From NCBI GenBank assembly GCA_951406725.2, contig OX597824.1, positions 59,024,001 through 59,088,000 on the forward strand: a stretch of 64,000 nucleotides of DNA, given 5' to 3'. A program made the translations under genes and the position numbers. The stretch's first letter is position 1. Every line of letters starts with the position of its first letter. Below are positions 6,830 to 49,838 of the stretch, one piece after another. Source of the DNA: Octopus vulgaris. Taxonomy: Eukaryota. A model generated the notes under the pieces. That model did not search any database. It was not told the origin of the DNA and was given only the letters and a program-made list of their open reading frames with translations.

Positions 6830-8275
6830 CGCTACCTCTTATGACTGCTAATGAAAAAACACAATATTGGCCCGGCTGCAGCCTGTCGTTATCCTGCAAT
6901 GGACCAGCACACACAGCGAAGATGGAACAAATAACTCAATTCTTTCTGTGGTCATGGAGTGTTTCTACCGGAGCGTTTCTGTAGACGAAAATTGTGCTCA
7001 TAATATGGGAATCCGACAACATACGTATTATCAAATGGAGAGAAAGAGGAATGTTTCAACTTACGGAACAGAGATTATGTAATCAAGCTAGAGCAATAAG
7101 AAAACATCGTTGGTTCACAGAAGTAGAGTTCGAAGCTATCAAAAGCAGGGTATTGAAAAACAGCAGCAGATAAAACAACGAAAATGCAGTTCTTAATGAT
7201 AAAAGTAATCTCATAACAGAAAACAGAGATGAGATCTCTGATAAACCAAAGAAAAGGAACAGTGATAGCTTGCTCGATGAGAGATATATAGATGGTCTGA
7301 AAGAAGCACAATTAAACTATTGGTGACATGACAGATTGGCAAGAGGTAATCTACGGCAGAATAAAGGCAAGGATACAGGAGAACGATAGCGACATTATTT
7401 GCAACCAAGGTTGATCGGTGGAAATTGAACCAAGAAACGTAAAATGTGAATGAAATTCTGAAATACATCAGAACAAAAAACATCACAGGAACAAATAATT
7501 TGATCAAGGCAGCAAGTATTGTAGTAGCAGAAAATGTGGATGTTGATGTCAAGAAAAGAAATATAATGGGAGTGACAAAAGAAAAGATCCATGGTGGAAA
7601 GGAAGAATACAGTCAGCGTTAGATATACTCCCGAAGGACATCACTGTGTTAGACCGAAAAGAAAAGGGGTAGCTTAAAAGCGAGCAAAAATACAGGGCAC
7701 TGAACAGGAAGTATGATATTGAAAGAAAGGGTCTGAAAGTGGTAATGGAGGAACTGAAACAGCGCCTCGTTGCAAAAACTGAAACAAATAGACAGAACTA
7801 GTCATTTCAGTTATGGAAGTGAAGGAAATCAGCAAACAATGGGCAGCTGAAAGGCATCGAGACCAGATAGAGTTCAAGGCTACTGGCTGAAAAGATTTGG
7901 TGAATATTATGCACGAGAAGCTGCGCAACTCAACACATTGTTAAATGCCGACTAAGTAACACCAGAGTGGTTGAGAATGGGTGCTGTACTTGAAAAACAT
8001 CGAAAACGGCAATACGATATCCTGCTTGCCAATTATGCGGGAATTATTGACTGGAATACTCGCAGAGTCAATGTACGAACATCAGGAATAAATGGAGTCC
8101 TGCCACATGAGCAGAAGGGGAGCAAGCGTAAGTGTAGAGATACCAAGGTTCAACTCCCGGTAGACAAAACTATACTTAGAGACTGCAAGGGGAGAAAACC
8201 TAACATAGCCATGTCATGGATCGATTATCGTAGGGCATACGATATGATCTCACATTCTTGGATTATAGAATTATA

Positions 8276-8361
<86 letters not shown>

Positions 8362-10192
8362 TTTGGTGTTGCATCGAATGTTGAACGATTGCTTGGAAAA
8401 AGTATGGTGAAGTGGAGGACGGAACTGATAGAATATGAAAGAAGTTTAGGAACAATAGAAATCATGAGAGGCATATTCCAAGGGGACTGCCTGTACCCAC
8501 TGATCTTTGTACTGTCCATGAAAAAGAGGGGGAAGAGGACTGATTGGATGGAAACCCAGCATTAGAGCAAAAGAAAACAACATAGCATGGAATGTAAAAA
8601 TACTACACTAACACTGATTGTGAGGAAAGCAAAGGCTGTGTGTGTATTCAAAAGCCAGCAACAAAAAGTCAGCAACTTGTTATTCATGGATGACCTTAAA
8701 CTTTATGGTGAAGATGAATCCCAAGTCAGTTTCCACGTTAGTACGGTTTATACTTTCAGTGCTGATATCAGAATGGAGTTCGGACTGAAAAAGTGTGGTG
8801 TGCTAGTCTTGAAGTGAGGCAAAATCAAATGTATGGACGGGCTAGCGATATTATCGGGGGAGGTTTTGAAGCAGATAGCAGAGACGGGCTATAAGTACTT
8901 GGGGATTTTGAAAATGGATAAATTGATGAAGAAAGAAATGACTGAAAAATTTAAGGTGGAGTACTTACGCAGTCTGAGACTGATCCTGAAGTCGAAATTA
9001 AACGGACGGAATAAGATTGAAGCAATCAACACCTGGGCAGTTTCACTCCTTAGACATGGAGCAGGGCTAATCGCATGGACAGTAGACGAACTAAACAGCT
9101 TAGGCAGAAAGACAAAGCAGTTGCTGACTAAATATGGGAGACTCCACTTAAAAAGTGACACAGACAGACAGTATGTACCAAGAAAAAGAGGGGGAAGAGG
9201 ACTGATTGGATGGAAACCCAGCATTAGAGCAAAAGAAAACAACATAGCATGGAATGTAAAAATACTACAGAACTGCTCTTATTGGAAGTAAGAAGGTAAG
9301 GCTTGTGTAAGATGTAAGATTGCAAAGACGAAGCATTGTAAAAGGACTTGAGAATGAATGGAACTGAAAATAGGTGGATAAAGTAAAGAATGCATGGAGA
9401 ATTTCATAGGGACGTTGAAGATAAAAGAGACAGAGAAAAATATAGCTATGGATGACTAAAAGTGATTTAAAACCAGAAATGGAGGCTCTAATCTGTGCTG
9501 ACGAAGAGCAAGAACTAACAACTTAGACAACACATCAGAAGGTGATGAGTGCAGAATTTGTGGACAAAATGGTGAAACGGTATGGAATATTATCAGTCAA
9601 TGTACGCCACTAGCCCAGAAAGAGTATAAGAGACGTAATGACGACATAGCATGGATAGTCCTTTGGACACTTTGGAACAAGTATGGACTTGAAAGAGCAA
9701 AATGTGGTACGAACATAAACCCGGAAGCATCATTGAAAATTATAATGCAAAGGCTCTATGGGATTTTAATATTCAATGCAACCATGAAATAGAGAATAGA
9801 AAAACAGTCGTAGTGTTAATTGCAAGGAAAGCAAACGATGCTGGATCATGGATATAGCATGTCCAACTGAAAACAAGGTATGCGATTAGGAAGAAAGAAA
9901 AGTCGATAGATATCATTGGTTAGCTTTGGAGGTCAATCAGTTTTGGTCGATGGAAAAGGTGATAGTAGCACCAATAATTGTCGGAGTCCTGGGAACAGTG
10001 AGTAAAAATCTTGAGAAATATATGGAACAAATAGGGGATGCAATAAGGGTGGAGCACTTGCAGAAAACAGCACTACTTGGAACCGCTCGAATACTCCGGA
10101 TGGTGCTCGAAAAATAAGAGGTGTTACCTTAGTTCACTGGTAGTGAACAGCTGACACCGTAGTACATCTCCAGCGTTAGAAGCTGTGTAAAG
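6830..10192 (+). mobile_element. near full-length decayed R4/Dong-type LINE, a second family
   Basis: N-terminal VMECFYRS..TEQRL.NQAR motif. RT motifs EQKG..DTKVQL, SWIDYRRAYDMISHSWI, GIFQGDCL, LLFMDDLKLY and YKYLG. C-terminal YVPRKRGGRGL, CRICG..ET.W.IISQC, DIACP and PIIVGVLG..LQKTALLGTARILR*. A short ATAATAA follows the 3' UTR. Confidence 0.9.
8277..8362. repeat. (TAA)n tract inside the LINE RT region
   Basis: Read directly; it interrupts the frame after HSWIIE. Confidence 0.95.
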
Positions 10193-10204
10193 ATAATAAA
10201 TAGA

Positions 10205-10522
10205 ATGGGAATAAAAACCTCAAAGTTAATAATTATTATTAAAATTATAATTAAGGGTATCTAAAAGATACCACCATCCAAGAAATAGCAGCCAAAACTT
10301 GACTCTAAAACCCATGCTAGCCACCTGATAAGATTGGTATTTTAAATAACGATCTAATCCTTATTTATATAAATTTATATATTTATTTCGTCATTATATT
10401 CACTGCGGTGGTATTTTAACCATACCGCACGAGGAGTTTTAGGCGGGTAATTTAAACTGGTCGTGTGCATACGTGCATATATATGGATGCATACGTTCGT
10501 ATATGTAAGTATTCGTATGTTT

Positions 10523-10598
<76 letters not shown>

Positions 10599-10929
10599 GT
10601 ATTTATATGCTATCTGCGTGTATTCCACTGATGAAGGCAAAGCATTTTTTATGCAGGGCCAGAAATCTGGGATCTGGAATTATCCAGTAAACTTTTTGGC
10701 TAGTTTATTTTGTCATATTGTCTTCTCTCTTGGTGCTGTATGAACATTTAATGTGGTTTTAGAGTCAAGTTTTGGCTGCTATTTCTAGCATGGTAGTATC
10801 TTTTAAATACCGTTAATCATAATTTTAATTATAACTATTACCTTTGAGATATTTATTCCCATGCTAGCCACATGATAAGATCGATATTTTAAATAACGAT
10901 ATTATCCTTATTTATATAAATTTATATAT
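10205..10929 (+). mobile_element. non-coding Penelope-derived/retrozyme-like element with an inverted 5' segment and a direct terminal repeat
   Basis: 10205-10312 is an inverted copy of 10755-10862, and 10311-10382 is a direct copy of 10858-10929. An internal HHR lies at 10622. Confidence 0.7.
10622..10680 (+). ncRNA. type I minimal hammerhead ribozyme
   Basis: ATTCCA-CTGATGA-aGGC..GCATtttttATGC..GCCa-GAAA-TCtggGA-TC-TGGAAT. Stem I is a perfect 6 bp, the core is canonical and predicted cleavage is after 10674. Confidence 0.8.
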
Positions 10930-10936
10930 ATATATA

Positions 10937-11319
10937 CTAGCAGTATCGCCCGGCGTTGCTCAGGTTTGTAAGGGAAATAACTATAAAGCATTTTTAGAGA
11001 GTTATAGCCAAAAAATAGCAAAAAAATGGAAAAAAAATTATGGTAAATTTTTTTTGAGAGTTAAAAAAGGTGGAGTTGCGTCCCCTAGACGGTCTGTGGT
11101 TTGGGTTTCTGATTCTCGACCCCATGTCGAATTTATCGATTTTTTCAGAACTGGGGGAACTTTTCAAAATTTTCGCTGCGTTAGTTTTGAATTATGACAT
11201 TGGGCTATGTGTGTGTCAAGTTTCATCAGAATCGGTTGAAAGCCGTGGTCAGAGTGAGGGTACGAGAAAACAGACACACAGAAAACGCACAGACAAACTG
11301 CCGTTTATATAGAGAGAGA
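10937..11319 (-). mobile_element. non-autonomous Helitron
   Basis: Minus strand starts TC(TCTCTCTATATAAA) and ends with the GC-rich hairpin CCTGAGCAACGCCGGG followed by CGATACTGCTAG. It is inserted between A and T with no TSD. Confidence 0.8.
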
Positions 11320-11326
11320 TATATAG

Positions 11327-11671
11327 TAGGAATGGTTGTGTAGTAAGTAGCTTGCTTACGAACCACATGGTTCCGAGTTCACTCCCACTGTGTGGCACCT
11401 TGGGCAAGTGTCTTCTACTATAGCCTCGGGCCAACAAAAGCCTTGTGAGTGGATTTGGTAGACGGAAACTGAAAGAAGCCCGTCGTGTATATGTATATAT
11501 CGCTTGACAACCGATGCTGGTGTGTTTCCGTCTCCGTAACATAGCAGTTCGGCAAAACAGACCGATAGAATAAGTACTAGGCTCACAAAGAATAAGTCCT
11601 GGGGTCGAATTGCTCGACTAAAGGCGGTGCTCCAGCATGGCAACAGTCAAATTACTGAAACAAATAAAAGA
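11327..11671 (+). mobile_element. SINE family A copy
   Basis: TGGTTGTGTAG (A box), GAGTTCACTCCC (B box) and CCTTGGGCAAGTGTCTTCTACTATAGCC, with a 3' end GAAACAAATAAAAGA. Confidence 0.88.
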
Positions 11672-11719
11672 GTATATATATGTATATATATATATATATA
11701 TACATAATCGTTTTGAAAG

Positions 11720-12955
11720 ATTCTTGATGTGAATTCGTATGTTGAAACAGATATTGCTGTATTTGCGGATGGTAACGTTGCCAGTTTAGCCAATAAAAAC
11801 ACACGCACTATATATTTGGTGTTCACTTGTTTCAGCTTTATATTAATCGTATTTCAGCCAGAGTTATTTCGTCATACTTCTTTGAATTCATCAGTTGTCC
11901 TTTGCTTTCCTCTTTATTTTATGTGCGTCTTTTCTTACTAATGATCAGCCATTTTGTATTCCTCTTGTATGTGTCTTAATTTGCGCATGCATATATCCCT
12001 GTGTGTGTCTATGTTTAGTAAGTGTGTTGTGTGTGTGTGGGGGATGTGCCTGTATTATTAGTATCCCCTGTTTATACACGTTCGTTTCATTTTATTTATT
12101 TTGTTCGTTTGTTTATTTTTATCTACTTATTTTTCTTTTCTTTCCTTTTTTTGTATTTAATTTAGTTTAATTTATTTTGTTAATGTATATAGTTATTTAG
12201 TTCCATATATTTATTTGTGTATTGTATTATATTCATATTATTATCAGTTTATGGGGATCTTATTCTGTCATAGGTTGTGGTGTGTTGGATGTGTGTGCTA
12301 GTGTTCAGTTCTAGTTTCCTATTCAGGCTAGGTTTACGTTCTATTATGTGTGTAGCTTCCGTAATTTGTCTAGGCGTTGCGTCTGTTCTATGCGTGGACA
12401 AGATTTTAACTTCTATGTTGCTAAGCGAGTCCCCGTGTTCCTGCTCGGCGTGTTAGTAAAGAACCGATGAGACCTCTTCCTTAAGTTCCCTCTAATGCTG
12501 TTTTACCCGCTCTCCTATGCTCCGCGTTGTTTCCCCTACGTACGTCGTTGTCATGTTACTGCACCGTCCCTCTGTGCATCATATAGCTATACAGTTTGTT
12601 TGTGGGCTAAATCTACATACAATTTAGTTCCTATCAGTACAGGGGGTTCTACTGATTAGGGATTTGATAGGGTTGCCTGGCCTTTCTACAACATTAATTC
12701 TTAGCTTAAGTTTGTTCAGGGCCCTTCTAAAGCGGTATGCCAGTTCGCCTCTAGGGGTAGTGTCGACGAACATGACACTCTGGTATTTGTGGCTGTCATA
12801 CCATGAGTTGGCCTTCCCTATTTTCTTCTTAGCCCTTTCAATGGTGTTCCATTCCTATCGCTATGTATGTTAGTTTCAAATTTCTTCATGGCTCCATTTT
12901 ATACTCTGATCCTTTCTCTATGGCTGTATCCTAAGAACTGCATACCTTTTCATGG
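11720..12955 (-). mobile_element. Penelope-like element remnant (GIY-YIG endonuclease plus 3' pseudo-LTR region)
   Basis: Minus-strand translation near 12545-12310 reads TYVGETTRSIGERVKQH*..HAEQEHG..IEVKILST..RQITEATHIIERKPSLNRKLE. A degenerate HHR lies downstream at 11858-11897. Confidence 0.85.
11858..11897 (-). ncRNA. degenerate hammerhead ribozyme in the PLE pseudo-LTR
   Basis: Minus strand caa-CTGATGA-attcaaagaagtatgac-GAAA-taac-TC-tgg. The core boxes are intact but the stems are eroded; homologues lie at ~34205-34235 and 39621-39657. Confidence 0.45.
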
Positions 12956-13044
12956 TAAGGTAGGACAGAAAGCTTAAAGAACGCCTGACACACAACTCCA
13001 TACTCATGAACATGTACTCTCGCTATGTCGATGATATCAACGTA

Positions 13045-13047
<3 letters not shown>
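12956..13047 (+). mobile_element. inverted PLE reverse-transcriptase fragment
   Basis: DRKLKERLTHNSILMNMYSRYVDDINVV (YVDD catalytic motif), opposite in orientation to the adjoining GIY-YIG region. Confidence 0.75.
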
Positions 13048-49250: not shown

Positions 49251-49500
49251 CATCACAGGTGGAGAGTATGAATGCGATGAGGAGTAGAAGTTGAAAGCAA
49301 AACAAAAAGCAAAGCGGAAAAGCACATGGAAAAACAACAATCCACATCCACACATGCTGTAGAAAGAAAAAATCAAAGCGACAAAAACATATACACCCAA
49401 AATAAACACTGCATAGATACCACCACTCGAACACCTGAAACACAAGCTGTCCTACACACGCAACTACAACAACAACAGCAAACATAACAAGCACAAATCC

Positions 49501-49559
49501 CTCGCTGATGAAGGGAGAATCTTATTTAGATTAATCTAGAAATCGGAACCGATTCGGAG
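49501..49559 (+). ncRNA. type I hammerhead ribozyme, core intact and stems I/II partly eroded
   Basis: CTCG-CTGATGA-aGGGAGAATC ttattta GATTAATCTa-GAAA-TCGGaaCCGA-TT-CGGAG. The downstream TGCTGGCCACAGATAA..ATCCTTAT resembles the terminal repeat of the 10205 element. Confidence 0.7.
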
Positions 49560-49801
49560 ATAATTATATTTTTATGAATTTCTGTTAGCTTGCTTCCCTC
49601 GTTTCAGCATTTGGTGTAATGATATAAGTGGATATATTTTAAGTGGTTAGATGATTTAGCGTCTATTTTTCAGCGTATATTTTTAGCGTCTATTTTCAGC
49701 ATATTGGCTGTTTATAATGGGATAATTTTCACCTTAACAGGTGCTTTTTTCTGCTGGCCACAGATAAAAAATTTTTATAAAATTATATCCTTATATTACA
49801 A

Positions 49802-49838
<37 letters not shown>

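What the first reader, a model, noticed from the sequence alone, without database searches (positions are those of the whole stretch)
10205..10929. ORF-less A'-B-[HHR]-A-B element: retrozyme-like unit of ~550 bp
Seen: an inverted copy of segment A, a direct repeat of segment B spaced about 547 bp apart, and an intact HHR between them. Known: an inverted 5' piece plus a partial tandem repeat is the typical PLE insertion structure, and retrozymes insert as longer-than-unit copies from circular or multimeric RNA. Inference: a non-autonomous PLE-mobilised ribozyme element, with a diverged relative at 49495-49800.
Basis: partly seen in the sequence, partly recalled or inferred. Interest (0 to 1): 0.7.

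Follow-up and report, generated by a model that had tools for sequence, protein, structure and literature searches.

The report
Old hammerhead retrozyme, Penelope-type insertion
This is one old copy of a 547-base, protein-less repeat, found hundreds of times in an octopus genome, that carries a predicted self-cutting RNA motif and was likely pasted into TA repeats by a Penelope-type retrotransposon enzyme; the kind is known, and only the altered ribozyme core and the paired start points add detail.

Summary
Observation confirmed (element 10201-10933). The unit is an ORF-less 547-nt head-to-tail monomer with a type I hammerhead (predicted cut after C10674). There are at least 249 exact-motif copies, about 560 estimated. 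It is not the 3' end of a coding PLE: 0 of 60 motif-picked copies have a PLE ORF leading into the ribozyme. Copies are 5'-truncated and end in (TA)n at two fixed points about 100 nt apart (T1, T2). Two-armed insertions use one of each (24:2 and 14:0), the PLE 'tail' signature. Two-ribozyme dimers exist; no trimer was seen. The ribozyme core is intact, but the usual G10.1-C11.1 pair is replaced family-wide by A.A or a lone extra A; a younger sister family keeps G-C. 49500-49807 is a separate sister family. The family is old (duplicates within one insertion differ by about 8%). Cleavage, circular RNA and the partner PLE are unshown; one Neptune hybrid is suggestive. Verdict: new member of a known kind (non-LTR retrozyme / non-autonomous PLE). 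This scan already reported younger families of this kind elsewhere in this genome.

The parts
10201..10312 (-). Inverted arm A' (unit positions 10755-10866). Its outer end abuts the TAA-like tail of another retroelement and is neither T1 nor T2, so it is truncated or atypical.
10311..10386 (+). First copy of B (end of the tail, with the T2 hairpin). 5' start of the direct arm; 2-nt CC overlap with A'.
10387..10520 (+). Segment C, non-coding. Follows B head-to-tail across the family; an occasional third 3' end (T3) lies at its end.
10521..10599 (+). Internal (TA)n tract of the monomer, length variable among copies
10622..10680 (+). Type I hammerhead motif. Predicted cut between 10674 and 10675 (AUC); A.A at 10.1/11.1; near-palindromic stem III (AUCUGGGAU).
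10681..10833 (+). Monomer body up to first 3' terminus T1 (about 10805-10850, after a hairpin and an AT-rich run)
10834..10933 (+). About 100-nt optional 'tail' ending at second terminus T2 in (TA)n; homologous to the tail of the sister families
49500..49807 (+). 5'-truncated copy of sister family 2 (485-497-nt ORF-less monomer, same hammerhead architecture, ends in (TA)n)

Best explanation
This is an old copy of a 547-nt ORF-less repeat whose unit carries a predicted type I hammerhead and was likely reverse-transcribed into a (TA)n site by a Penelope-like element's RT/GIY-YIG protein, that is, a non-LTR retrozyme or non-autonomous PLE. Shown: head-to-tail units, no ORF, hundreds of dispersed copies, (TA)n at the 3' ends, variable 5' truncation, two fixed 3' ends, and two-armed insertions that pair T1 with T2. 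Inferred mechanism: the PLE protein cuts both strands of AT-rich DNA, binds an RNA holding more than one unit (a read-through multimer or a ribozyme-made circle), and primes cDNA from both cut ends. One end starts at the T1 hairpin and the other at the T2 hairpin. The two incomplete cDNAs join 5'-to-5' by microhomology, which gives A'-B-C-HHR-A-B. Whether the template was circular is about 50:50. The ribozyme would need a dimer, because its stem III closes a loop too short to fold well alone and is self-complementary.
For: 249 exact hammerhead-pattern hits, control 0; about 560 estimated from 12 of 27 copies. Order B-C-(TA)n-HHR-M-A-B is constant in 77 loci. Direct two-ribozyme dimers in L012, L020, L031 (546 nt apart), L150 and 2 of 60. 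No PLE ORF leads into the ribozyme in 0 of 60 loci, with about 2.5 kb upstream in 58 and less in 2. One-armed 3' ends: T2 40, T1 15, T3 3, other 4 of 62. Two-armed: T1/T2 24, T2/T2 2, T1/T1 0, other 13 of 39 (p 5e-6); independent set T1/T2 14, same-site 0, other 10 of 24 (p 6e-5). Duplicates within one insertion are closer (8.5% direct, 8.2% inverted) than between insertions (11.9%). 9 of 15 hammerhead pairs are compensatory across three families; 91.7% of cells paired vs 17-48% for slid controls. 27 of 30 copies chosen on downstream sequence read through the cut site. The same anatomy is described for PLEs (PMC8557442 Fig. 2 text; PMC11167929) and retrozymes (PMC7229834). An intact, young (TA)n-targeting Neptune with a 1312-aa ORF is in the genome, and L138 joins an older Neptune arm to this family in one insertion.
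Against: No coding partner with a homologous tail was found: Neptune tail z 0.5; Naiad_Ovul and Hydra-1_Obim 3' ends look unlike by eye; no open frame over 179 aa among 150 tail matches of the sister family. No array with three ribozymes in this family, whereas published retrozymes reach 62-mers (PMC7229834). The 547-nt unit is longer than the 150-450 bp given there. The G10.1-C11.1 pair is missing and the catalytic fold is not the lowest-energy fold. The window's own inverted arm does not end at T1. The L138 hybrid junction is unique and could be Neptune inserting into existing DNA. The compensatory changes are mostly one between-family event per pair, and the count of pairs changed on both sides did not exceed shuffles (112 of 500).
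Confidence: 0.85

Rival explanations
1. Non-autonomous PLE copied only from uncleaved linear read-through RNA of 1.5-2-unit genomic masters. The hammerhead is a weak or dead relic and no circle exists (a variant of the best reading that denies the 'retrozyme' life cycle).
For: A.A or lone A at 10.1/11.1 (an A directly before GAAA in 74 of 78 cores); 27 of 30 copies cross the cut site; no trimers; hammerhead mutants did not affect insertion by a lizard PLE in vitro (PMC11167929); 8 of 9 Xenopus dimers did not cleave (10.64898/2026.07.22.740005).
Against: Core boxes, the cleavage triplet, a self-complementary stem III and compensatory stems are kept across three families. No consistent 5'-unit vs 3'-unit differences that would mark a fixed linear dimer master: only 3 weak positions, two at the T1 edge. 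3 of 30 copies begin within about 5 nt of the cut site (too few to test).
Confidence: 0.4
2. The copies are 5'-truncated 3' ends (pLTRs) of a coding PLE, and the tandem look comes from partial-tandem PLE insertions.
For: Termini, tail, inversions and hammerhead are all pLTR features (PMC8557442, PMC4209133); a rare or lost coding parent with this pLTR is not excluded.
Against: Wherever copies extend, ribozyme is preceded by C and C by B, closing a 547-nt loop with no ORF; 0 of 60 have an upstream PLE ORF; flanks share only unrelated repeats.
Confidence: 0.08
3. A satellite-like or foldback DNA element spread by recombination or DNA transposition; the ribozyme motif is incidental.
For: Inverted arms and internal (TA)n could favour recombination.
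Against: Polar 5' truncation with fixed 3' ends, T1/T2 pairing, dispersal on many chromosomes and no long arrays fit target-primed reverse transcription.
Confidence: 0.04

Closest known systems
Metazoan non-LTR retrozymes (Cervera and de la Pena 2020, PMC7229834: passages and Discussion read; Li, Clavereau, Pollet 2026, 10.64898/2026.07.22.740005: abstract through Discussion read, supplements closed)
   Same: ORF-less head-to-tail unit, type I hammerhead, low GC (29% in L031), dispersed monomers and dimers, PLE as proposed mobiliser; unit length within the 51-972 bp range of the 2026 preprint.
   Different: No long arrays; unit longer than the 150-450 bp of the 2020 paper; 10.1/11.1 pair altered; expression, cleavage and circles not shown; cephalopods not covered in the text I read.
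EN+ Penelope-like elements, Neptune clade, and their non-autonomous derivatives (Craig et al. 2021, PMC8557442: passages and supplement searches; Frangieh et al. 2024, PMC11167929: main text read)
   Same: 5' truncation, partial tandem, inverted 5' arm, optional tail at one end, two initiation points, microsatellite target, hammerhead near the 3' end.
   Different: No RT/GIY-YIG ORF; tail about 100 nt rather than 30-40; no sequence homology to the active Neptune of this genome or to the published octopus Naiad and Hydra ends.
PLE-type hammerheads (Cervera and de la Pena 2014, PMC4209133: parts 1-2 of 4 read)
   Same: Extra nucleotide between A9 and 10.1 (in about half of copies), palindromic short stem III implying dimer cleavage, long stem II.
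   Different: That paper reports a highly conserved G10.1-C11.1 pair next to G12; here an A always precedes GAAA. A natural U.U mismatch at this place is reported (PMC3088659, passages).

Membership tests
Metazoan non-LTR retrozyme | Type I hammerhead in the repeat unit | tested here: met
   Core and stems present; covariation across families; Rfam models do not detect it.
Metazoan non-LTR retrozyme | Non-coding unit; no LTR, PBS or PPT architecture | tested here: met
   No meaningful ORF; 547-nt closed unit. PBS/PPT motifs were not searched separately.
Metazoan non-LTR retrozyme | Tandem copies with at least two consecutive ribozymes | tested here: met
   L012, L020, L031, L150, L221, L253. 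The window copy itself has one ribozyme (1.14 units plus an inverted arm).
Metazoan non-LTR retrozyme | Self-cleavage of the transcript | not testable with these tools
   Needs in vitro transcription; variant 10.1/11.1 makes it uncertain.
Metazoan non-LTR retrozyme | Abundant monomeric linear and circular RNA | tested here: inconclusive
   Only contigs of runs guessed to be RNA were available; these cannot show ends, strand or circles.
Non-autonomous PLE | 5' truncation, partial tandem, inverted 5' arm, optional tail, microsatellite target | tested here: met
Non-autonomous PLE | 3' end homologous to an autonomous PLE | tested here: inconclusive
   No homology to the active Neptune or to published octopus Naiad and Hydra ends; other PLE families were not enumerated; one Neptune hybrid.
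Autonomous PLE | RT plus GIY-YIG ORF between pLTRs | tested here: not met
   0 of 60 loci.

The most novel reading that the evidence does not exclude
Each two-armed insertion records one PLE protein dimer copying a single small RNA circle from both cut DNA ends, each subunit starting at its own hairpin (T1 or T2). The circle is made by an active hammerhead variant that has traded the G10.1-C11.1 pair for A.A or a bulged A, and a Neptune protein with a non-homologous tail mobilises it by recognising structure.
Probability: 0.25. Interest if true: 0.65.

Novelty: new member of a known kind. Interest (0 to 1): 0.36.

Why it matters
PLE mobilisation of animal retrozymes is mostly inferred from co-occurrence and pLTR similarity. 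This family adds genomic footprints (tail, two-armed T1/T2 pairing, one hybrid) that make the both-strand priming model countable. It also offers a natural contrast, G-C versus A.A at hammerhead 10.1/11.1 in sister families, for a simple cleavage assay. As a class it is known, this family is old, and younger families in the same genome are better test cases.

Tried and rejected
Rfam found no hammerhead. Pfam did not name the window's PLE fragments or the 1312-aa ORF. Partner hunts: a GIY-YIG piece and a second protein both returned the same Neptune family; its pLTR has no homology to this unit. Published octopus Naiad and Hydra consensus ends were compared by eye and by motif search in the supplement of PMC8557442, without a match. 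The idea that the tail is a relic ORF start gave no long ORF in 150 scored matches of 3360 candidates. The hybrid junction of L138 occurs once. RNA: no RNA holder listed; contigs of runs guessed to be RNA, under organism codes A-D, and of one run of unknown kind (code E) cover the family, but show no start, end, strand or circle. A 5'-end excess at the cut site was 3 of 30, inconclusive. The circular fold of the L031 monomer (z -6.2) is inflated by the TA tract and was not used. The first automated arm tally counted AT-only matches as arms and was redone with those dropped; 2 of the 14 pairs and one T2/T2 case still rest on short AT-rich matches. Literature: 'octopus'+'hammerhead ribozyme', 'octopus, Penelope, non-autonomous, repeat' and 'hammerhead, G10.1, C11.1, mismatch' listed nothing describing this family or this core. 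The Lunse et al. paper on PLE hammerhead variants is not held, and it or unseen supplements may already list this variant.

Full report
Observation. The three described features are present. Inverted arms lie at 10201-10312 and 10755-10866 (89%), and direct repeats at 10311-10386 and 10858-10933 (92%, 547 apart). A type I hammerhead at 10622-10680 has its predicted cut after C10674. All 16 pairs I assigned to stems I-III are Watson-Crick, but the bases flanking stem II at the core are A10635 and A10661, not G-C. The catalytic fold (-10.5 kcal/mol) is not the lowest-energy fold (-16.5). Rfam does not detect it.

Host and family. The genome is 2.8 Gb. Proteins labelled Octopus vulgaris are up to 99% identical to a coding PLE of this genome, so the host is an octopus. 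The unit has 249 exact matches to a tight ribozyme pattern, control 0. 12 of 27 copies picked without that pattern match it, giving about 560 ribozyme-bearing copies. The best relatives are 86-90% identical. Duplicated segments inside one insertion differ by 8.5% (direct, 19 loci) and 8.2% (inverted, 24 loci), against 11.9% between insertions. Each insertion was therefore likely one event, and old.

Is it ORF-less? In 77 loci the segment order is constant: B, C, (TA)n, ribozyme, M, A, B. The end of the tail joins directly to C, closing a 547-nt unit. I then fetched 60 further loci from the list of a 24-nt ribozyme pattern (168 hits, 100 listed; 57 taken in list order, 3 picked as close pairs). 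Of these, 26 reach C upstream, 9 show the B-C junction, 2 are direct two-ribozyme dimers, and 0 have a PLE ORF running into the ribozyme; only short Neptune tail pieces beyond TA tracts and one RT piece downstream were hit. No copy with three ribozymes was seen.

Termini. 3' ends fall into (TA)n or AT-rich runs at T1 (about 10805-10850) or T2 (about 10905-10933), and rarely at the internal TA tract. Both lie just after a hairpin followed by CC and an AT-rich run. One-armed insertions: T2 40, T1 15, T3 3, other 4 of 62. Two-armed insertions: T1/T2 24, T2/T2 2, T1/T1 0, with an irregular or T3 end 13, of 39. In the independent set: T1/T2 14, same-site 0, other 10 of 24. I ran this pairing test after earlier scan notes on younger families suggested it. 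[quoted passage not shown] The window copy is an exception: its inverted arm ends at unit position 10866, against the tail of a neighbouring retroelement.

Sister families. 49500-49807 belongs to family 2, a 485-497-nt ORF-less unit with dimers (L059, L066, L067), two termini and inversions. Its tail aligns with this family's (z 12). A younger family 3 (unit about 450-510 nt, one trimer) turned up in L089. Across 21 hand-picked ribozymes of the three families (11, 9 and 1 rows; three misaligned in stem II), 9 of 15 pairs change on both sides and 91.7% of cells pair, against 17-48% when slid. These are mainly single between-family events. Family 3 has G10.1-C11.1 in 27 of 31 cores. Family 1 has an A before GAAA in 74 of 78 cores, with AG or AA (about half) or G after CUGANGA. 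The 5' extra base is a known PLE trait, while G10.1-C11.1 is reported as highly conserved (PMC4209133); a natural U.U there is known (PMC3088659). The stem III sequence forms a self-duplex (-6.8 to -9.9 kcal/mol) but no hairpin alone, as expected for dimer cleavage.

Partner. [quoted passage not shown] Its tail is not homologous to this family (z 0.5), and another non-coding element does carry a Neptune-like tail; both points argue against it as the direct parent. Published octopus Naiad and Hydra ends do not match. In favour: L138 is one insertion whose left arm is an older Neptune 3' end (T1) and whose right arm passes through a 4-nt shared word from Neptune tail into this family and ends at T2. 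L089 joins a young Neptune arm 5'-to-5' to family 3. Each is a single case, and Neptune insertion into pre-existing DNA would look similar. The partner is not identified.

Template. 27 of 30 copies chosen on sequence downstream of the cut site continue across it, so the copied RNA was uncut or re-ligated. No fixed differences between upstream and downstream units emerged. Circle and linear multimer both fit. Public data were contigs only and decide nothing.

Comparison and verdict. It meets the testable criteria of metazoan non-LTR retrozymes (PMC7229834), which a 2026 preprint derives from PLE pLTRs (10.64898/2026.07.22.740005), and it has the insertion anatomy of PLEs. My searches found no paper on this octopus family, but Repbase, Dfam and one key paper on PLE hammerhead variants were not available. 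The scan has several younger families of the same kind in this genome and no note on this sequence. New member of a known kind; interest 0.36.

Noticed in passing
window 11700-13046: Decayed two-armed Neptune PLE: GIY-YIG C-terminus and pLTR with hammerhead remnant (11894) on the minus strand, RT piece on plus; about 74% aa identity to the active family.
   Followed up: yes
L101:2942-6880, L102: Young, intact Neptune family (1312-aa ORF, many near-identical copies). Its hammerhead-like motif reads CUGAUGCG before stem II, and its two 3' termini lie in the ORF's first codons.
   Followed up: partly
L089:1685-2125, L190-L214: Third, younger ORF-less sister family with canonical G10.1-C11.1 hammerhead and multi-unit arrays; in L089 joined 5'-to-5' to a Neptune arm.
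   Followed up: partly
L138:580-2000: Hybrid insertion of an old Neptune 3' end and this family, joined through the Neptune tail.
   Followed up: partly
L227, L265, L223, L146: Another non-coding repeat carrying a Neptune-like tail, found next to copies of this family at TA tracts.
   Followed up: no
window about 7900-10200: Decayed non-LTR retrotransposon 3' part with restriction-like endonuclease motifs and TAA-like tail (R4/Dong type, label recalled), abutting the inverted arm.
   Followed up: no
window 10937-11315 and 11330-11670: A repeat starting at the TA tail of the element (Helitron-like start, label recalled; also after T1 in L137) and a common SINE-like repeat.
   Followed up: no
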